Source: Candidatus Helarchaeota ASGARD archaeon Hel_GB_A (GTDB lineage: Archaea > Asgardarchaeota > Lokiarchaeia > Helarchaeales > HEL-GB-A). From it: a DNA stretch of 7,206 nucleotides. The number at the start of each line of letters is the position of its first letter. Positions within the stretch are counted from its first letter, which is position 1. The DNA lies in NCBI GenBank assembly GCA_005191415.1, contig SUPS01000213.1, positions 1 through 7,206 on the forward strand, in the 5' to 3' direction. Under the pieces are notes generated by a model, which saw only the letters and a program-made list of their open reading frames with translations, was not told where the DNA came from and made no database searches. The position numbers and the translations under genes are program-made. Positions 1,842 through 6,954 of this stretch are shown piece by piece.

Positions 1842-1969
1842 GTTCATCTATTAAAATTGTTTAATTTTCAAGTTTTCATTTCTCTTAGATTTAATTTATT
1901 AGATAAATTAATTTCTCGTATAGAATCAAATTTTTCTCCCAAATTATGGTTTGATCCTCATACATAACT

Positions 1970-1978
1970 TTTTTAAAA
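1970..1978 (+). promoter_or_regulatory. candidate TATA-like box for the 5S precursor
   Basis: TTTTTAAAA is centred about 26-28 nt upstream of G2000, the first base of the flanking stem. A second TATA-like element, ATTAAATA (1992-1999), would instead start transcription near 2022 and exclude the stem's 5' arm. The two cannot be distinguished from sequence. Confidence 0.25.
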
Positions 1979-1999: not shown

Positions 2000-2022
2000 G
2001 GTTTAGATTTGCATTGAGGTTC
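2000..2022 (+). other. 5' arm of the processing stem flanking the permuted 5S rRNA
   Basis: GGTTTAGATTTG (2000-2011) is perfectly complementary to CAAATCTAAACC (2169-2180). GCAT (2011-2014) pairs with ATGC (2162-2165). GGTTC (2018-2022) pairs with GAACC (2155-2159). Confidence 0.65.
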
Positions 2023-2028
2023 GTGTCG

Positions 2029-2154
2029 AATTAAGCTCGTATACGTTCTTGTTGGTACTGCAGTGCGAGAGCCTGCGGGAAGACAAGAAAGCTGAACTTC
2101 GGTTCGGTCATAGCTACGAGGTAACACCCGTTCTCATCCCGAACACGGCAGAAT
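2029..2154 (+). rRNA. 5S rRNA, circularly permuted gene order (3' portion 2031-2097, UUCG linker 2098-2101, 5' portion 2102-2154)
   Basis: All canonical archaeal 5S elements are present on the + strand, in swapped order.
- Helix I: GTTCGGT 2102-2108 with GCTGAAC 2091-2097.
- Helix II: TACGAG 2115-2120 with CTCGTA 2036-2041.
- Helix III: CCGT 2128-2131 with ACGG 2145-2148.
- Loop C: TCTCATCCCGAAC.
- Helix V: TTCTTGT 2046-2052 with ACAAGAA 2083-2089.
- Helix IV: CTGCAG 2058-2063 with CTGCGG 2073-2078.
- GTACTG...GGGAAG loop-E-like region.
From memory, the sequence is close to haloarchaeal 5S (..CCCAUCCCGAACACGGAAGAUAAGCC.. and ..GUACUGGAGUGCGCGAGCCUCUGGGAA..). Confidence 0.8.
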
Positions 2155-2180
2155 GAACCCCATGCGGACAAATCTAAACC
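2155..2180 (+). other. 3' arm of the processing stem flanking the permuted 5S rRNA
   Basis: The arm reads GAACC-CC-ATGC-GGA-CAAATCTAAACC and is complementary to 2000-2022 (see the 5' arm). It is followed by a short T-run (2184-2187) that could contribute to termination. Confidence 0.65.
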
Positions 2181-2483
2181 ATATTTTCATTCTTTCAGAG
2201 AGCTAAGAAAATAAATTTACCGAATTATTTCTCTCTTTACTTCTTAACTCCTGATTTTAGTAATGCCAAAATAATTAAAGATCAAACATTTCATAATTCA
2301 CGGTTTCTTTGAATTCATGCGTTGTTTTAATCTAAAAGGTATTTGTTCAGATTCCTTAAAGATAAAAACTTTTGCCACAATTTTTTAATAGAAGGTTAAA
2401 TTTATTCCATTAAATTATAGTAATATGTTTTCCATATCTATAGAAATAGAAATCTACAACTTTCTAGCAATTTGAGTGGATTA

Positions 2484-2537: not shown

Positions 2538-3659
2538 ATGATGCAATATTATAATGAATGGTCTTGGATTTTTCAAATCATATTTTTAGTACTCTTTATT
2601 GTTATTTTCTTTTATAATCAGCGAATCCAGCTATGGATGATGCAGAAACAAATTGAAGTCGCAGTGCGCGAGTTAGAACAAATGACTAAGGAAGGAAAAG
2701 ATGTTTTAGTGAAGCTAATCAATGAAAGAGGAAAGCCCAAAGAAGATCCGCGTCCAATATTAAATTCCTTACTAGATTTCTTCACTGTGCAGCCAGTAGA
2801 CTTAGATCCCGCAGGGATTATCTATAGGCTTGAGCACATACTAGATGTTAGAAAATCACGTTGGGAACAGCACGTTAAACAAATTGCACCTGCCGCTTCA
2901 CGCGATGTAGCGGCAAATATTGAAGGTACCATTGAAGCTACTTCGGCAGTTAATATGATTTTCAAAATTGTTCGGCATTATCTTCTATTAGGGAAAAAGA
3001 CCAAAAGTCTTATATTGATTATGCAAATTCAGATGCAATTGCCTTTAATTATGCAAATTGCCAAAGCTATTTTCAAAGCCTTAAAATCCTTTAGTCAAGG
3101 CATTCCTATTGGGGATAGCATCGGTCCACTGGTGGTGACCACCCTCGTTCATGATTACAAAAAACAATCCCCTCCAAAAATTACACGCGATTACACAAAG
3201 GATATTACTCTATATGAAATGGAAATTGAGGGACGAAATGTGTTCATTATTAGAGCAACAGGACCTGGTGCGACTGTCGGAAAACCTGGTGAAGCCATTA
3301 AAAAATTGGTAGAAGAAAAAGAAGGTAAAATTGCGCGGCTCATTATGGTGGACGCTGGATTGAAATTAGAAGGTGAAAAAACTGGGACTGTTATTGAAGG
3401 TGTTGGAGCGGTAATCGGCGGTCCGGGTGTTGAAAAATACAAGATTGAAGAATCTGCAGGTGTGAAATATAGTGTGCCAATGGATGGTATCGTTATTGAA
3501 GAAGGTCAAGAAGATGCCTACGGAACTATGGTAAAAGATTTAGTAAAAAGTGTTCCAAAAGCAATCGAAAAGATTAAAAACGCTATATTGACCCGCACCG
3601 TAGAAGGCGATAATGTTATTATTGCAGGGATAGGAAATTGTTGCGGAATAGGTGATTAA
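2538..3659 (+). CDS. DUF1512-like archaeal protein of unknown function, N-terminally membrane-anchored
   Basis: 373-aa ORF with an N-terminal hydrophobic helix (WSWIFQIIFLVLFIVIFFY). Its size and architecture match my recollection of Pfam DUF1512 (archaeal proteins of about 370 aa). Gly-rich conserved-looking blocks are present: GDSIGPLVV, ATGPGATVGKPGEA, MVDAGLKLEGEKTGTVIEGVGAVIGGPGVEKYKIEE. The family assignment is from memory and was not searched. Confidence 0.8.
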   Translation: MMQYYNEWSWIFQIIFLVLFIVIFFYNQRIQLWMMQKQIEVAVRELEQMTKEGKDVLVKLINERGKPKEDPRPILNSLLDFFTVQPVDLDPAGIIYRLEHILDVRKSRWEQHVKQIAPAASRDVAANIEGTIEATSAVNMIFKIVRHYLLLGKKTKSLILIMQIQMQLPLIMQIAKAIFKALKSFSQGIPIGDSIGPLVVTTLVHDYKKQSPPKITRDYTKDITLYEMEIEGRNVFIIRATGPGATVGKPGEAIKKLVEEKEGKIARLIMVDAGLKLEGEKTGTVIEGVGAVIGGPGVEKYKIEESAGVKYSVPMDGIVIEEGQEDAYGTMVKDLVKSVPKAIEKIKNAILTRTVEGDNVIIAGIGNCCGIGD

Positions 3660-3680
3660 TGATTATTGAAGGTGTAGGTT

Positions 3681-4163
3681 ATGAGTGAAGTAAAATATAC
3701 AACTGCTGCCAAAATTTTGAAAGTATTAGGCTATATTTTGATGATGGCTTCTGTATTTTTGATCATGATAGGGATTTCTGGCTTTTTTATGGGACCCATC
3801 CATCCCGCAATAGATCCTCTCTATATGCTATTCTCAGGACTCCTGCTTTTTATGGCAAGTCTTCCTATTTTAATGATGTCCCAAACAGGAATTGTCAAAC
3901 CAGAATTCGACGTCATCTCGCTTCTACGATGCTCTAATGCCGATTGTAAATTTACAAAAGGAAGAAAATTTGAAAAAGATGAATATGTGTTTAAGGAACT
4001 CGATGAAAAATGTGAGAAATGTAATAGCAACTTCTACATTGCCGCCATTTTTGAAGTGGAACGCAAACCAAGCAAGAAGAAAGAAGAAAAAACAATGAAT
4101 ATGAAAGAAGTCGAGAAAGATTCAAAACAAGAGGAATCTCCAGCCCCAAAAACACCAAGCTGA
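3681..4163 (+). CDS. small membrane protein with two predicted TM helices, a C-terminal CX4C...CX2C zinc-ribbon-like motif and a Lys/Glu-rich tail
   Basis: The ATG at 3681 is preceded by AGGTG (3669-3673) at Shine-Dalgarno distance, 21 nt after the upstream stop. Hydrophobic segments are ILKVLGYILMMASVFLIMIGISGFFMG and LYMLFSGLLLFMASLPILMM. The cysteines are CSNADC (X4 spacing) and CEKC. Confidence 0.7.
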   Translation: MSEVKYTTAAKILKVLGYILMMASVFLIMIGISGFFMGPIHPAIDPLYMLFSGLLLFMASLPILMMSQTGIVKPEFDVISLLRCSNADCKFTKGRKFEKDEYVFKELDEKCEKCNSNFYIAAIFEVERKPSKKKEEKTMNMKEVEKDSKQEESPAPKTPS

Positions 4164-4227: not shown

Positions 4228-4689
4228 ATGTTACGTCTTGTGGGAGTTGCAGGGACTTTTGGTCCCCTCCATAAAGGACACTACAAGCTTTTGCGAAAAG
4301 CTTTCGAAGTTGGCGAAAAAGTCCTTGTTGCACTGACTACAGAAGCAATGCTCGAGCATAAGACTGCCAAGGACAAAATCCCCCCCTACAATGTAAGAAA
4401 GCAAAAACTCGAAGAGTTCTTGAATAGTCAAGGATATTATGGTCGTTATGAAATTATTCCTCTCGACGACCCTTACGGTATAGCAATTACCCTCGCTGAA
4501 CAGGAGGGCATCGTTGTAAGTGAAGAAACCAAAAAAGGGGCGGAAAAAATCAATCAAATCCGAAAAGAACGCGGTCTAAATCCTCTCAAAATTTTCGTTA
4601 TTAAAATGGTATTGGCAGAAAACGGCAAACCCATTTCTTCCACACGAATTCGCAAAGAAGAACTGGATCTTGAAGGTCATCTAAAATAA
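4228..4689 (+). CDS. coaD: phosphopantetheine adenylyltransferase, archaeal type (cytidylyltransferase-fold nucleotidyltransferase; CoA biosynthesis)
   Basis: The 153-aa protein has the N-terminal nucleotidyltransferase signature GTFGPLHKGH (the GTFDxLHxGH type) and the C-terminal ISSTRIR motif. Its length and the central block YEIIPLDDPYG...IVVSEET are typical of archaeal PPAT (COG1019-type) as I recall them. Confidence 0.8.
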   Translation: MLRLVGVAGTFGPLHKGHYKLLRKAFEVGEKVLVALTTEAMLEHKTAKDKIPPYNVRKQKLEEFLNSQGYYGRYEIIPLDDPYGIAITLAEQEGIVVSEETKKGAEKINQIRKERGLNPLKIFVIKMVLAENGKPISSTRIRKEELDLEGHLK

Positions 4690-4696
4690 TATCCTA

Positions 4697-5386
4697 TTAT
4701 TTGCGAAAAAAACAACAGTGAAACGCATATCCATCAAGAAAAGCTAACTTTTTTACAGCAGGGTTCACGTTCATGGCTAAAACATTTATTATCAATTGTT
4801 CTGGCGAAATTAGGAAGATACCATTTAGATCGGAACAATCAACTACTCGAAATAATCGATTTGTATATCCTCCCAATACAATACAATGCGTAAACCATGG
4901 CACAATTGCCTGATATTTGTTGTCCCCTATTTTTCTTATATTTTTCCAATCTGCATAAGGTGTAAATCGGAATCCGCCCGCACCATAGGGCACCCATAAA
5001 ATAAGTGGTCCTTTTTTAAGATGCATTACTAACTCTTCTTCTAACTTCTCTAATTCGCCTTCCGCTAATTGAATAAAAAAACTCATGCCATATCCTCTTT
5101 CTCCATTTTTCTGAGCTTTTAATTCAAACCAAGTACAATCGAGATCCTTCACTTGGTGCGCATTCCATTTCAGTTTCTGAGATTTCACCATATAACCTGT
5201 ATAAGGCGCCCAACCAAACAATCCTGCCATCTTCGATGGGAGCGCTCGCTTAAAGTCTTCCTCAGGGGGATATTCATCTGGTACTCCATAAAAATAATCG
5301 AGAATTGTTGCTAAGTTATTGAAAGAGCATTGCGAATACCGCCCTTCCCACTTTACTTCATATTGAATTTCAATTTTCTTTTGCAT
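4697..5386 (-). CDS. hypothetical protein; candidate papain-fold (C39-like) cysteine peptidase or transferase
   Basis: 229-aa ORF. An N-terminal SQCSFNNLATILDYFYG block resembles the nucleophile-Cys helix of C39/phytochelatin-synthase-like papain-fold enzymes. The distal THCIVLGGY...VVDCSD block resembles the His and Asp/Asn strands. No signal peptide is obvious. Motif-level inference only. Confidence 0.65.
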   Translation of the reverse strand: MQKKIEIQYEVKWEGRYSQCSFNNLATILDYFYGVPDEYPPEEDFKRALPSKMAGLFGWAPYTGYMVKSQKLKWNAHQVKDLDCTWFELKAQKNGERGYGMSFFIQLAEGELEKLEEELVMHLKKGPLILWVPYGAGGFRFTPYADWKNIRKIGDNKYQAIVPWFTHCIVLGGYTNRLFRVVDCSDLNGIFLISPEQLIINVLAMNVNPAVKKLAFLDGYAFHCCFFRK

Positions 5387-5446
5387 AATCTATTCAATTA
5401 GCGTCATCATTCTTTCATAAAATGGATTAAAAGATATCAAAACTCG

Positions 5447-5452
5447 AAAAAA
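5447..5452 (-). terminator. oligo-T tract (T6 on the minus strand), candidate terminator after hdrB
   Basis: The minus strand reads TAA-TTTCTTTATTTCTTTTTTCGAG downstream of the hdrB stop (5467-5465). Confidence 0.3.
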
Positions 5453-5464
5453 GAAATAAAGAAA

Positions 5465-6370
5465 TTATAATCCGAGTTTATCAAAAAATGATTGAACTGG
5501 AGTTTGGTGTGTTTCGAGCCCCATTTCAAGAGGAGACATTCCTAAAGCAAGACCAATCAACTGAGTATAAAAAACCACAGGAAGATTAAAGTTAGTGCCA
5601 CGTGCTTTATTGAGTTCTTGTTGTCCCACATCAAATTGAAAGTGACAAAATGCACAAGGCGTAGTTAAAACATCCGCGCTTGCATCTAGCATATTCTGTA
5701 TTTTTTCGGCTGTAAAATCTAATGCTACATCTTTAAATTGTGCTCGGACACCTCCTCCTGCACCACAGCACATATTCCGATCTTTATACATAACCGATTC
5801 TGCCCCAATTGCTTCCATTAAATCATCAAGAACTCTTGGACGTTCTGAAGATCCTTGCTTCCTTACCTTACTTGGTTTTAAGAAGTGACATCCATAATGG
5901 ATCGCCACTTTAATTCCCGTAAGAGGCCGCACTACCGCATCACGGATTTTATCAAATCCAATATCATCTCTCAAGACTTCAATTGTATGTTTTACTTCTA
6001 CAGTACCTTGATACTCATACCCTGTCGCTTCTTTTAGAATCTTATTTACCCGTTCTTTTAACTCTGGTTTCTCATGAAGTAAATGATTTGCTTCTTGCAA
6101 AGACCCATAACACCCGTTACACGTCATGGTTATGTTATTTCCTTGGCGCTCGGCGATCAGAAGATTTCGGGTAGCGATTGTTGCCCATGTAAAGAGATCG
6201 AAACTTCCAAACACCCCTGGTGCAGGACAACAACTTGCGCCTTTCAACTCCACAATTTCAACTCCTAGCCGTCTGAATACTTCAATAGTAGTATATTCAA
6301 TTCCTGGGTAACGATTGGGGGTCAAACATCCTAAAAAATACGCATATTTTTTCTCACTTTCTACTGCCAT
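5465..6370 (-). CDS. hdrB: heterodisulfide reductase subunit B (two CCG domains)
   Basis: Both cysteine-rich CCG motifs fit CX31-39CCX35-36CXXC exactly by my count. The first runs FLGC-31 aa-CC-35 aa-CNGC. The second runs HYGC-39 aa-CC-36 aa-CAFC. I place the start at the ATG 6370-6368 (MAVESEKKYAYFLGC...). It overlaps the hdrC stop as TAATG and is preceded by AGGAGG (complement of 6379-6384). The track's longer ORF to 6412 would overlap hdrC by 43 nt. Confidence 0.9.
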   Translation of the reverse strand: MAVESEKKYAYFLGCLTPNRYPGIEYTTIEVFRRLGVEIVELKGASCCPAPGVFGSFDLFTWATIATRNLLIAERQGNNITMTCNGCYGSLQEANHLLHEKPELKERVNKILKEATGYEYQGTVEVKHTIEVLRDDIGFDKIRDAVVRPLTGIKVAIHYGCHFLKPSKVRKQGSSERPRVLDDLMEAIGAESVMYKDRNMCCGAGGGVRAQFKDVALDFTAEKIQNMLDASADVLTTPCAFCHFQFDVGQQELNKARGTNFNLPVVFYTQLIGLALGMSPLEMGLETHQTPVQSFFDKLGL

Positions 6371-6954
6371 TATTTTTGTGCCTCCTGTGCCTTTTTCCAT
6401 TGTTTTTCCCATATTTCTTTAAATCCCGTCTTCTCGCATATCGCATTAACCTCTTTCAGCCCCTCGGGATACGAATGTACCGTAGGAGGTAATTCGCTTA
6501 ACCCCAACTTCTTTCGAAGCTCCTTTACAGGCTCATTGATGGGAACGGCATGTCCAAATTTAAATAATAATGAACAGACAAAAAGATGATTCTTTTTTGC
6601 ATACCCTTCTCGAAATGCTACATTTCTGATGACCCGAACCGTATCAGTTGTTGAGATGCCTCGAGGACATCGTTCCTGACACGTATAACAGGTAGTGCAA
6701 CACCATAAATCATCCGTATCAAGCACCTCTTCTTTTAAGCCTATCATTGCCTTCTGAAACAGCGTTTTAATTCGCCATGCTGTGCGCCGTCCAGAAGGAC
6801 ATCCACCTACACAAGTGCCACATTGAATACAAGTCCTCACTTTATCTATTTCTGGAAAAATCTTCTCGCCAATTTCGATTACATCATCAAGAAATTTCGT
6901 ATCTCGTACGCGCACGACTTTTTCCTTATCAAGAACCATATTAATTACCTTCAT
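6370..6954 (-). CDS. hdrC: heterodisulfide reductase subunit C (2x[4Fe-4S] ferredoxin-like)
   Basis: The 194-aa protein has two CX2CX2CX3CP cluster motifs (CIQCGTCVGGCP and CTTCYTCQERCP). It lies immediately upstream of, and is translationally coupled to, the CCG-domain subunit. An alternative start at Met6 (6939) is possible. Confidence 0.9.
   Translation of the reverse strand: MKVINMVLDKEKVVRVRDTKFLDDVIEIGEKIFPEIDKVRTCIQCGTCVGGCPSGRRTAWRIKTLFQKAMIGLKEEVLDTDDLWCCTTCYTCQERCPRGISTTDTVRVIRNVAFREGYAKKNHLFVCSLLFKFGHAVPINEPVKELRKKLGLSELPPTVHSYPEGLKEVNAICEKTGFKEIWEKQWKKAQEAQK

What the first reader, a model, noticed from the sequence alone, without database searches (positions are those of the whole stretch)
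2000..2180. Bulge-helix-loop processing stem brackets the permuted 5S: possible splicing-endonuclease cleavage and circularisation
The new ends of the permuted 5S are clamped by long-range complementarity.
- GGTTTAGATTTG (2000-2011) pairs perfectly with CAAATCTAAACC (2169-2180).
- A 4-bp helix GCAT (2011-2014) / ATGC (2162-2165) follows. It shares G2011 with the outer stem, so one of the two is 1 bp shorter.
- The 3' strand has a GGA or GGAC bulge (2166-2169).
- The 5' strand has unpaired TGA (2015-2017) opposite CC (2160-2161).
- An inner helix GGTTC (2018-2022) / GAACC (2155-2159) completes the structure.

Helix, bulge, 4-bp helix, loop, helix is the relaxed BHB/BHL architecture cut by archaeal splicing endonucleases. 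These enzymes act in 16S/23S processing stems and on permuted tRNA precursors, and cleavage is followed by RtcB-type ligation into circles.

If that mechanism is used here, the product would be a covalently closed 5S of about 150 nt. It would carry a small extra hairpin (GGTTC/GAACC) at the loop B side. Alternatively the stem may only hold together a linear permuted 5S with trimmed ends.

The motif is not a strict 3-4-3 BHB, so this is a hypothesis.
Basis: inference. Interest (0 to 1): 0.8.

Follow-up and report, generated by a model that had tools for sequence, protein, structure and literature searches.

The report
Terminal helix of a permuted 5S rRNA
The long-range pairing is real and conserved: it is the new paired end of a naturally rearranged (circularly permuted) 5S ribosomal RNA found in several Asgard archaeal lineages, but relatives give no support for the idea that it is a splicing-enzyme site that turns the RNA into a circle.

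Summary
The sequence features are all present. GGTTTAGATTTG (2000-2011) pairs perfectly with CAAATCTAAACC (2169-2180), and the inner helix is 6 bp (2018-2023/2154-2159).

Together they bracket a genuine circularly permuted 5S rRNA gene on a Helarchaeota-like Asgard contig. Rfam 5S positions 46-114 lie at 2024-2094. Positions 1-53 lie at 2100-2154. Helix I is closed by a UUCG tetraloop.

I found 14 distinct permuted 5S genes, from Helarchaeota-like, Freyarchaeota and unnamed lineages. A Thorarchaeota contig carries a canonical 5S in the same slot upstream of the DUF1512 gene.

- **Stem:** outer and inner helices covary. The ends emerge at the conserved helix III bulge, a known solvent-exposed site for 5S expansion segments.
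- **BHB-like middle:** the GCAU/AUGC helix is only 57% paired in the seven closest relatives. Seven more distant homologs have plain, essentially uninterrupted 10-16 bp terminal stems.
- **Control:** intron-containing tRNAs on two of these contigs do show near-canonical 3-4-3 BHBs.
- **Transcript ends:** a conserved TATA box 20-26 nt upstream and T-runs just downstream place the stem at the ends of the primary transcript.

Best reading: a linear permuted 5S whose new terminal helix does the job of helix I. Circularisation is unsupported but not excluded, because no RNA data were available.

The parts
1966..1978 (+). Archaeal-type promoter: purine-rich BRE-like AAC followed by the TATA-like TTTTTTAAAA (1969-1978). 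It lies 21 nt upstream of the 5' arm.
   Evidence: The same box sits 20-26 nt upstream of the 5' arm in 10 of 12 homologous loci. The canonical Thorarchaeota 5S has TTTTATAG 20 nt before its helix I. The transcription start at about 2000 is inferred, not mapped.
2000..2011 (+). 5' arm of the outer (distal) terminal helix, GGUUUAGAUUUG.
   Evidence: Perfect 12-bp complement of 2169-2180. 93% paired with compensatory changes in 7 relatives.
2012..2017 (+). 5' side of the asymmetric internal loop, CAUUGA. U2015-G2016 can pair with C2161-A2162, and A2017 faces C2160.
   Evidence: GCAU/AUGC is 57% paired in relatives. UG/CA is paired in 13 of 14 cells but is invariant.
2018..2023 (+). 5' strand of the inner (proximal) extension helix, GGUUCG.
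   Evidence: Pairs with 2154-2159. 97.6% paired with 4 of 6 pairs compensatory in 7 sequences. 9 of 9 pairs compensatory over 12 sequences.
2024..2035 (+). Relic copy of the helix III 3' strand plus the loop B 3' side, UGUCGAAUUAAG (Rfam 5S positions 46-57).
   Evidence: Truncated Rfam 5S match covering model 46-114 at 2024-2094.
2036..2041 (+). Helix II 3' strand, CUCGUA.
   Evidence: Pairs with UACGAG 2115-2120 in the MFE fold. Helix II has 5 of 6 pairs compensatory.
2046..2089 (+). Gamma domain: helix V (2046-2053/2082-2089), loop E, helix IV (2058-2066/2071-2078) and loop D.
   Evidence: Helix V has 6 of 7 pairs compensatory and helix IV 5 of 8.
2091..2108 (+). Helix I closed into a hairpin: GCUGAAC-UUCG-GUUCGGU. 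The native 5S ends are joined by a tetraloop.
   Evidence: The hairpin is conserved in all 14 homologs with UUCG, UUUG, UACG, CACG or UUCG-like loops.
2109..2148 (+). Loop A (CAUAGC), helix II 5' strand (2115-2120), loop B, and helix III with loop C (2124-2148, ending ACGG).
   Evidence: Rfam 5S alignment of model positions 1-53. RNAalifold recovers the standard helix III.
2149..2153 (+). A-rich linker CAGAA at the position of the conserved helix III bulge. The chain leaves the 5S core here.
   Evidence: Alignments A2 and A3. The site matches the bulge insertion site described in PMC7812874.
2154..2159 (+). 3' strand of the inner extension helix, UGAACC.
2160..2168 (+). 3' side of the asymmetric internal loop, CCAUGCGGA.
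   Evidence: Its length varies from 9 to 14 nt and its sequence is not conserved in the 7 close relatives.
2169..2180 (+). 3' arm of the outer terminal helix, CAAAUCUAAACC.
2184..2187 (+). T-run (TTTT) 4 nt after the 3' arm. Likely archaeal terminator.
   Evidence: A run of three or more T's begins within 14 nt after the 3' arm in 10 of 12 loci. Function is inferred.

Best explanation
The complementarity is the distal part of a new terminal helix of a naturally circularly permuted 5S rRNA.

Gene order: a relic of the helix III 3' strand, the loop B 3' side, the helix II 3' strand, loop A, the gamma domain (helices V and IV), helix I closed by a UUCG tetraloop, loop A, the helix II 5' strand, then helix III and loop C. 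The chain therefore begins and ends in an extension helix that sprouts from the universally conserved bulge of helix III.

[quoted passage not shown] That the same holds in an archaeal ribosome is my inference.

How it most likely works:
1. Transcription starts at about 2000 from the conserved TATA box.
2. It stops at the T-run just after 2180.
3. The two ends of the primary transcript pair with each other.

The stem then does what helix I does in an ordinary 5S. It brings the two halves together so that helix II and the three-domain core can form, and it buries the 5' and 3' ends in a duplex. No endonuclease or ligase step is required, and the product stays linear and permuted (about 181 nt here).

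Likely origin: tandem duplication of the resident 5S gene, followed by loss of the outer parts.

Shown: the permuted order, the conserved fold, covariation of the stem, and synteny with a canonical 5S.
Inferred: the transcript ends, the linearity of the product, incorporation into ribosomes, and the tandem-duplication origin.
For: Permuted order.
- Rfam 5S model positions 1-53 align at 2100-2154.
- Positions 46-114 align at 2024-2094.
- The full model fails the gathering score (31.6 against 38).
- The de-permuted core aligns colinearly with a canonical Thorarchaeota 5S: 76 of 121 columns identical, score 89 against 23 for the sequence as encoded.

Fold.
- The RNAalifold consensus over 12 distinct homologs recovers helices I to V plus the extension helix.
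- 92.9% of cells are paired, against 74% in shuffles and 35-45% in slid controls. 28 of 40 pairs have compensatory changes.

Stem.
- The outer and inner helices covary.
- All 14 homologs end in a terminal helix.

Orthology.
- The permuted gene lies beside the DUF1512-PPAT gene cluster in 9 loci.
- A Thorarchaeota contig has a canonical 5S (78.4 bits) about 100 nt upstream of the DUF1512 gene, the slot the permuted gene occupies in the window.

Transcript ends.
- TATA-like boxes lie 20-26 nt before the 5' arm, and T-runs follow the 3' arm.
- The canonical Thorarchaeota 5S has the same spacing before its helix I.

Structural tolerance.
- The helix III bulge is a documented expansion site on the solvent side (PMC7812874).
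- Closing helix I with a tetraloop is tolerated in engineered E. coli 5S (PMC7283268).
Against: - No RNA-level data were available. The ends, the linearity and the presence in ribosomes are all inferred.
- In the window the BHL-like fold is thermodynamically accessible. Base-pair probabilities of the GCAU/AUGC pairs are 0.58-0.83.
- All seven close relatives keep an asymmetric internal loop whose longer side is always the 3' strand, next to the outer stem. Its function is unexplained.
- The distal stem core UAGAUUUG/CAAAUCUA is more conserved in sequence than a purely structural helix needs to be.
- I could not check whether the same genomes also carry a canonical 5S gene.
Confidence: 0.7

Rival explanations
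1. Reader's headline reading. In this lineage the outer stem, GGA bulge, GCAU/AUGC helix, UGA/CC loop and inner helix form a relaxed bulge-helix-loop. The archaeal splicing endonuclease cuts it, and RtcB ligates the inner fragment into a covalently closed 5S of about 150 nt carrying a short capped hairpin at the helix III bulge.
For: - The motif exists in the window with the correct BHB polarity.
- It lies within about 2 kcal/mol of the MFE, and its pairs have probabilities of 0.58-0.83.
- All close relatives keep a 3'-strand bulge next to the outer stem.
- Circular archaeal 16S and 23S rRNAs, and permuted 23S made through BHB circularisation, are documented (PMC7758197, PMC12918454).
Against: - The motif is not strict 3-4-3. 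The second 'bulge' is a 3x2 loop, and G2011 is shared with the outer stem.
- The central helix is 57% paired in 7 relatives, near the 44-46% of controls slid by one column.
- No other homolog has a BHB or BHL in its terminal stem.
- Seven homologs have plain stems.
- tRNA introns on the L017 and L020 contigs use BHB-type motifs, near-canonical 3-4-3 in L017.
- PMC12918454 states that 5S, unlike 16S and 23S, is not processed through circularisation in the archaea studied.
Confidence: 0.08
2. The outer stem is a transient processing stem. Other nucleases (not the BHB endonuclease) trim the precursor within or near the internal loop. This leaves a linear permuted 5S that ends in the 6-9 bp inner helix.
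For: - The two-part extension with a variable 3'-strand loop is specific to the window's subclade.
- More distant homologs manage with 10-16 bp stems, so the extra distal helix is dispensable for the core.
- Archaeal 5S 5'-end processing by other enzymes is known from established knowledge of Haloferax (tRNase Z). I did not test this here.
Against: - The promoter and terminator positions leave almost no leader or trailer to remove.
- The distal stem is the best-conserved part of the extension. That is unexpected for a discarded spacer.
- No conserved sequence motif is present in the loop.
Confidence: 0.15
3. The locus is a non-functional 5S-derived relic, or a dispensable paralog, and the flanking complementarity has no role.
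For: - It is below the Rfam gathering score.
- I could not show that a canonical 5S is absent from the same genomes.
- Expanded 5S genes sometimes coexist with normal ones (PMC7812874).
Against: - 14 distinct homologs in at least 3 lineages keep all 5S core motifs, a promoter and a terminator.
- 28 of 40 pairs show compensatory changes.
- The gene occupies the syntenic slot of the canonical 5S of Thorarchaeota.
Confidence: 0.04

Closest known systems
Canonical archaeal 5S rRNA (Rfam RF00001), e.g. the Thorarchaeota gene at L032 524-642
   Same: - Same universal core: loop A CAUAG, helix II, helix III with loop C (CCCGUUCUCAUCCCGAACACGG), loop E with helix IV (GUACUG...GGGAA), and helix I pairing.
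- Same genomic slot next to the DUF1512 gene.
- Same TATA-to-start spacing.
   Different: - The domain order is circularly permuted.
- Helix I is a closed hairpin.
- The ends lie in a new helix at the helix III bulge.
- The RNA is about 150-215 nt instead of about 120.
- It is not detected at the Rfam gathering score.
Expanded 5S rRNAs with an insertion at the conserved helix III bulge (Thermoanaerobacterium and relatives; Stepanov and Fox 2021, PMC7812874)
   Same: An extra helical module is rooted at the same universally conserved bulge of helix III. In the thermoanaerobacterial RNAs that module sits at the top of the central protuberance, and the 5S core is left intact.
   Different: - Those insertions are closed hairpins in an RNA of normal order, and they are bacterial.
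- That survey found only one archaeal insertion site (104.1-105) and no permutation.
- Here the module is open-ended and carries the RNA termini.
Permuted mitochondrial 5S rRNA of brown algae (mtPerm-5S; Valach et al. 2014, PMC4267664)
   Same: The final RNA product, not only the gene, is proposed to be permuted. The conventional open helix I is replaced by a hairpin.
   Different: - There the ends lie at the alpha/gamma junction in loop A, and the beta-then-gamma order is kept.
- Here gamma precedes beta and the ends are in helix III.
- There was no match to that Rfam family in the window.
- That case is organellar. This one is cellular and archaeal.
Engineered circularly permuted 5S in E. 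coli (Huang et al. 2020, PMC7283268)
   Same: The native ends are joined by a 4-nt connector and new ends are opened elsewhere. Ribosomes carrying it are functional.
   Different: - It is artificial.
- The new ends are in loop C or loop D and are fused into 23S rRNA, not free and not at the helix III bulge.
Permuted RNA genes matured through BHB cleavage and circularisation (Cyanidioschyzon merolae permuted tRNAs; Pyrococcus furiosus permuted 23S, PMC7758197)
   Same: Long-range pairing of the flanks brackets an RNA gene whose order, or whose product, is permuted. The host domain has the EndA/RtcB machinery (established knowledge).
   Different: - Those systems have conserved BHB motifs at the bracketing stem.
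- They also have a second processing step that re-opens the circle.
- Here no conserved BHB exists.
- The native ends are joined by a conserved 4-nt tetraloop with nothing to excise.

Membership tests
5S rRNA (RF00001) | Scores at or above the Rfam gathering threshold (38 bits) as one colinear match. | tested here: not met
   No hit at gathering. The best colinear hit is 31.6 bits, and only its 5' half truly aligns. None of 14 related loci passes. The cause is the permutation, not divergence.
5S rRNA (RF00001) | All core elements are present: helices I to V, loop A, loop C and loop E consensus. | tested here: met
   Model positions 1-53 lie at 2100-2154 and 46-114 at 2024-2094. The de-permuted core is 76/121 identical to a canonical Thorarchaeota 5S.
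5S rRNA (RF00001) | The secondary structure is supported by covariation. | tested here: met
   92.9% paired, 28 of 40 pairs compensatory, and 0 of 500 shuffles reach the observed values.
5S rRNA (RF00001) | The RNA is a component of the large ribosomal subunit. | not testable with these tools
   This needs RNA or ribosome data. Indirect support: the gene occupies the syntenic slot of the canonical 5S.
Archaeal BHB / relaxed BHL splicing-endonuclease substrate | Two 3-nt bulges on opposite strands separated by exactly 4 bp (strict hBHBh'). | tested here: not met
   No strict motif was found in the terminal stem of the window or of the 11 other transcripts scanned. In the window the second element is a 3x2 internal loop, and G2011 is shared with the outer stem.
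Archaeal BHB / relaxed BHL splicing-endonuclease substrate | Correct polarity: 3'-strand bulge on the outer side, 5'-strand bulge on the inner side. | tested here: met
   The window has GGA(C) 2166-2169 on the outer side and UGA 2015-2017 on the inner side. The polarity rule comes from established BHB geometry.
Archaeal BHB / relaxed BHL splicing-endonuclease substrate | The motif is conserved in orthologous loci. | tested here: not met
   The central helix is 57% paired in 7 relatives, against 44-46% in controls slid by one column. The relaxed motif occurs only in the window. Seven homologs have plain stems.
Archaeal BHB / relaxed BHL splicing-endonuclease substrate | Cleavage by EndA and ligation by RtcB (circular junction). 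| not testable with these tools
   No RNA-seq or enzymology was available.
Permuted genes expressed through a circular intermediate (C. merolae tRNA type) | An intervening sequence between the native 3' and 5' ends is removed to regenerate normal termini. | tested here: not met
   The native ends are joined by a conserved 4-nt tetraloop on a 7-bp helix I, with no spacer.
mtPerm-5S (permuted mitochondrial 5S) | Match to the Rfam model, with ends at the alpha/gamma junction and beta before gamma. | tested here: not met
   Only RF00001 was reported in 1850-2350 at E up to 10. Here gamma precedes beta.
5S expansion segment at the helix III bulge | An extra helical module is rooted at the conserved helix III bulge and leaves the core intact. 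| tested here: met
   The extension leaves the core after ACGG plus an A-rich linker (2145-2153). It re-enters before the AAUUAAG loop B strand. The site is as described in PMC7812874.
5S expansion segment at the helix III bulge | The inserted module is a closed hairpin inside a colinear 5S. | tested here: not met
   The module is open and carries the transcript ends. Helix I is the closed element.

The most novel reading that the evidence does not exclude
In the Helarchaeota-like subclade, the conserved asymmetric internal loop between the outer and inner helices is a processing site. Cleavage on both strands, followed by RtcB ligation, yields a covalently closed circular 5S rRNA that is built into ribosomes. 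This would be the first circular 5S, in the closest prokaryotic relatives of eukaryotes.
Probability: 0.07. Interest if true: 0.9.

Novelty: new variant of a known kind. Interest (0 to 1): 0.6.

Why it matters
- **A very invariant RNA, rearranged.** 5S rRNA is one of the most invariant RNAs known. A cellular lineage in which the gene, and most likely the mature RNA, is circularly permuted shows that the ribosome tolerates moving the 5S ends from helix I to the top of the central protuberance. So far this had only been shown by engineering. In the paper library I could search I found no description of a permuted 5S in archaea or bacteria.
- **A dated event.** It occurs in several Asgard lineages and replaces a canonical 5S in a conserved syntenic slot. 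That offers a datable evolutionary event and a possible phylogenetic marker.
- **Annotation.** These genes are invisible to Rfam-based annotation. Such genomes will therefore be scored as lacking 5S in MAG quality standards.
- **This finding specifically.** The stem is the element that makes the permuted molecule viable. Whether it is also a processing site is a sharply testable question.

Tried and rejected
- **Strict and relaxed BHB scans** of 12 terminal stems. Only the window gives a stem-associated relaxed hit. The other hits were small alternatives that break established helices or perfect stems.
- **K-turn reading of the internal loop.** A conserved GA lies 5' of the inner helix (2016-2017), but no partner GA exists on the other strand in any relative. 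Rejected by inspection.
- **ATTAAATA (1992-1999) as the TATA box.** It is not conserved in relatives, whereas the AACTTTTTTAAAA box is.
- **Break point in loop A,** which was my first reading. Rejected once helix II was seen to form between 2036-2041 and 2115-2120, and Rfam placed model 46-114 at 2024-2094.
- **Alternative pairing UGUCG 2024-2028 with CGGCA 2146-2150.** It competes with helix III and is 88.6% paired, but it shows no covariation. RNAalifold prefers the standard helix III. Left as unexplained.
- **Genome-collection scan.** It returned four haloarchaeal 5S genes with long insertions (irrelevant) and only one permuted locus.
- **Synteny look-ups.** Look-ups through DUF1512 and TrpRS homologs gave no 5S in L001-L003, L023, L026-L029.
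- **mtPerm-5S membership.** No match.
Full report
**What is in the sequence**

Reading 1800-2400 confirms every base-level statement of the finding.
- GGTTTAGATTTG (2000-2011) is the exact reverse complement of CAAATCTAAACC (2169-2180).
- GCAT (2011-2014) can pair with ATGC (2162-2165), sharing G2011 with the outer stem.
- GGA(C) (2166-2169) is then a 3'-strand bulge.
- TGA (2015-2017) faces CC (2160-2161).
- GGTTC/GAACC pairs and extends to 6 bp (2018-2023/2154-2159).

This 12-bp repeat is the only perfect inverted repeat of 12 nt or more with arms within 300 nt in the window. The 1995-2185 transcript folds better than shuffles (z = -4.06). A single such repeat in 7.2 kb of AT-rich DNA is not improbable on its own. 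The case for it rests on the comparative data below.

**What the stem brackets**

Rfam reports nothing at gathering thresholds. In E-value mode the 5S model matches at 31.6 bits. Only model positions 1 to about 53 truly align: helix I 5' strand, loop A, helix II 5' strand, and helix III with loop C, at 2100-2154. Searching 2024-2099 alone gives a truncated 5S match of model positions 46-114 at 2024-2094. That covers the helix III 3' strand, the loop B 3' side, the helix II 3' strand, loop A, helices V and IV, and the helix I 3' strand.

The two halves are therefore swapped. Helix I is closed by a UUCG tetraloop (GCUGAAC-UUCG-GUUCGGU, 2091-2108).

The break is not in loop A. It lies in the 3' strand of helix III at the conserved AA bulge. 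Model positions 46-53 are present twice, which is the footprint expected from a tandem duplication followed by loss of the outer parts.

The de-permuted core (2102-2148 plus 2029-2097) aligns colinearly with a canonical Thorarchaeota 5S. 76 of 121 columns are identical, and the score is 89 against 23 for the sequence as encoded.

**Organism and relatives**

The neighbouring DUF1512 protein (2538-3659) has its best named hits in Candidatus Helarchaeota MAGs. I collected 14 distinct permuted 5S genes by three routes:
- synteny look-ups;
- one pattern scan of GTDB genomes;
- one pattern scan of JGI metagenomes.

They fall into these groups:
- seven close relatives: window, L024, L014 (= L009), L017, L020, L004 and L007;
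- two more distant loci whose DUF1512 homologs sit among Helarchaeota-labelled proteins: L025 and L031;
- L030, of unnamed lineage;
- a GC-rich group, L015, L019 and L021. L019's TrpRS is 100% identical to a Candidatus Freyarchaeota protein;
- L016, of unnamed lineage.

None reaches the Rfam gathering score.

The last look-up was decisive for orthology. A Thorarchaeota contig (L032) has a canonical 5S (78.4 bits) about 100 nt upstream of its DUF1512 gene. That is the slot the permuted gene occupies in the window. The permuted gene is thus the positional ortholog of an ordinary 5S gene.

**Is the fold conserved?**

RNAalifold on the 12-sequence alignment A2 recovers helix II (formed between the upstream and downstream pieces), helices V and IV, the helix I hairpin, the standard helix III, and an extension helix at the ends.

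Counting that structure:

| Measure | Value |
|---|---|
| Cells paired, observed | 92.9% |
| Cells paired, shuffled | 74% |
| Cells paired, slid controls | 35-45% |
| Pairs with compensatory changes | 28 of 40 |
| Shuffles reaching the observed values | 0 of 500 |
| Extension helix | 98% paired, 9 of 9 pairs compensatory |

**Is the stem of the finding conserved, and is it a BHB?**

| Element | Cells paired | Compensatory pairs |
|---|---|---|
| Outer helix | 93% | 3 |
| Inner helix | 97.6% | 4 of 6 |
| Central GCAU/AUGC helix | 57% | not conserved (controls slid by one column: 44-46%) |

The central helix is the only element that makes the motif BHB-like, and it is not conserved. An alternative in which U2015-G2016 pair with C2161-A2162 is kept in 13 of 14 cells. 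It is invariant, so it carries no covariation signal.

What is conserved in this subclade is:
- a 6-bp inner helix;
- an A-C mismatch;
- two further pairs;
- an asymmetric loop whose 3' side varies from 9 to 14 nt, with no sequence conservation;
- an outer helix of 8-13 bp (10-13 bp in six of the seven).

A motif scanner found no strict 3-4-3 BHB in any terminal stem. It found a stem-associated relaxed bulge-helix-loop only in the window.

The seven more distant homologs close the molecule with plain or nearly plain helices of 10-16 bp. Examples:
- L019: CUGGGCACCGUGG/CCACGGUGCCCAG
- L016: GAUCCCCCAAGAA/UUCUUGGGGGAUC
- L025: GAGGAAAUAAUAU/AUAUUAUUUUCUC
- L030: GGUAGUAUCG/CGAUACUACC

As a positive control, L017 and L020 carry the permuted 5S and also encode tRNA-Thr(UGU) with an intron at 37/38. 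The scanner recovers a near-canonical 3-4-3 BHB in L017: CAGA | CUUG | UAU | UUUGCCG ... CGGCAAA | CAGU | AAA | UCUG. It did not recover the equivalent motif in L020, whose intron is slightly non-canonical by my reading of the sequence. The lineage therefore uses an ordinary BHB where it does splice.

It scores -20.8 kcal/mol against an MFE of -22.6 in a mini-construct. Pair probabilities in the full transcript are 0.58-0.83.

**Transcript ends**

A TATA-like A/T octamer preceded by a purine-rich element lies 20-26 nt upstream of the first base of the 5' arm in 10 of 12 loci. In the window this is AACTTTTTTAAAA, 1966-1978.

A run of three or more T's begins within 14 nt after the 3' arm in 10 of 12 loci. 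The canonical Thorarchaeota 5S has TTTTATAG 20 nt before its helix I.

By the usual archaeal spacing (TATA centred near -26, from established knowledge), transcription starts at about the first base of the 5' arm.

The stem is therefore made of the very ends of the primary transcript.

**Most likely mechanism**

The stem is the terminal helix of a linear, permuted 5S rRNA. It plays the role that helix I plays in ordinary 5S. It holds the two halves together so that helix II and the three-way core can form, and it sequesters the 5' and 3' ends.

The extension leaves the core at the universally conserved helix III bulge.
- Stepanov and Fox (PMC7812874) describe that bulge as a least-obstructed insertion site in bacterial 5S rRNAs. 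[quoted passage not shown] Their survey found only one archaeal insertion site, elsewhere, and no permutation.
- Huang et al. (PMC7283268) showed that closing helix I with a 4-nt connector is compatible with functional E. coli ribosomes.

Shown here: permuted order, conserved fold, covarying stem, synteny with a canonical 5S.
Inferred: transcript ends, linearity, ribosomal incorporation, and origin by tandem duplication.

**Rivals**

- Circularisation through a relaxed BHB cannot be excluded without RNA data. It lacks the conservation expected of a processing signal and is impossible by that route in half of the homologs. I give it about 0.08.
- Trimming of the outer stem by other nucleases in the Helarchaeota-like subclade is possible (about 0.15). 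[quoted passage not shown]
- A pseudogene is very unlikely (about 0.04).

**Comparison with known systems**

- It is a 5S rRNA by content and fold, but it fails the colinear Rfam model.
- It shares its rooting site with the helix III bulge expansion segments, but the module is open-ended.
- It differs from brown-algal mitochondrial 'permuted' 5S, where the ends are at loop A and the domain order is retained (PMC4267664).
- It differs from the C. merolae tRNA and P. furiosus 23S systems, which have conserved BHBs and a re-opening step.
- Literature searches for permuted 5S in archaea, Asgard or Helarchaeota found nothing. PMC12918454 states that archaeal 5S, unlike 16S and 23S, is not processed through circularisation in the species studied.

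**Limits**

- No RNA-level data were available.
- Most contigs are short, so I could not test whether a canonical 5S coexists in the same genomes.
- The lineages of L016 and L030 are unnamed.
- The collection scans used a strict pattern, so the true distribution is certainly wider than sampled.
- E-value-mode Rfam matches below the gathering score are used only as alignments of the two halves, not as detections.

Noticed in passing
window 2024-2028 and 2146-2150: The upstream relic UGUCG is complementary to CGGCA, which is the 3' strand of the standard helix III. The pairing is possible in 88.6% of cells in 7 relatives but shows no covariation. Similar complementarity exists in L025, L015 and L016. 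ViennaRNA prefers it in the window, while RNAalifold prefers the standard helix III. It could be an alternative conformer, or it could be only a relic.
   Followed up: partly
L004 about 3640-3690 (-) and L007 about 3425-3455 (+): Two relatives carry additional lineage-specific hairpins inserted in the loop B 3' strand of the permuted 5S. In L007 this is a perfect 10-bp hairpin, CUAAAUUCGG-CGAA-CCGAAUUUAG. This is a second expansion site.
   Followed up: no
L032 524-642: A Thorarchaeota MAG contig has a canonical 5S rRNA (78.4 bits) about 100 nt upstream of its DUF1512 gene. This is the syntenic slot that holds the permuted 5S in the window.
   Followed up: yes
L009 (DATKTP010000169.1) 2000-2260: A contig of a MAG labelled as the bacterium Candidatus Deferrimicrobium sp. 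carries an Asgard-type permuted 5S. The roughly 300 nt spanning it are identical to those in JGI contig L014. The contig is probably mis-binned.
   Followed up: no
L010-L013 (e.g. L010 4060-4330): Haloarchaeal 5S genes of normal order with an insertion of about 100 nt after loop E matched the first pattern by chance. I inspected L010 only. This is the known Halococcus-type expansion (PMC7812874).
   Followed up: partly
L017 2317-2420; L020 6351-6453; L025 1075-1180 (-); L030 5317-5482: Intron-containing tRNA genes lie near the permuted 5S. tRNA-Thr(UGU) of L017 has a near-canonical 3-4-3 BHB at 37/38. The L030 tRNA match spans 166 nt, which suggests a long or multiple intron.
   Followed up: partly
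window 2000-2180 versus L004, L024, L025, L031: The permuted 5S gene is inverted relative to the adjacent DUF1512 gene in some relatives. In L030 it lies downstream of the PPAT gene. The small gene has therefore moved or flipped locally while staying linked to the cluster.
   Followed up: partly
window 2005-2011 / 2169-2175 and alignment A3 columns 12-19 / 216-223: The distal stem core UAGAUUUG/CAAAUCUA is almost invariant among the seven close relatives, while the inner helix covaries freely. This suggests a sequence-specific constraint, such as a protein site or the initially transcribed region.
   Followed up: no
L029 2136-2304 (-): There is a weak 'tmRNA' Rfam match (18.9 bits, far below gathering) next to two tRNA genes in a Lokiarchaeota contig. 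It sits in the 1.2-kb non-coding gap upstream of DUF1512. It is probably an intron-containing tRNA or noise. No 5S was found in that gap.
   Followed up: no
window 4228-6954: The gene neighbourhood holds phosphopantetheine adenylyltransferase-like (4228-4689), HdrB-like CCG-domain (5465-6412, -) and HdrC-like 4Fe-4S (6370-6954, -) genes. It is conserved in order across the Helarchaeota-like relatives.
   Followed up: partly
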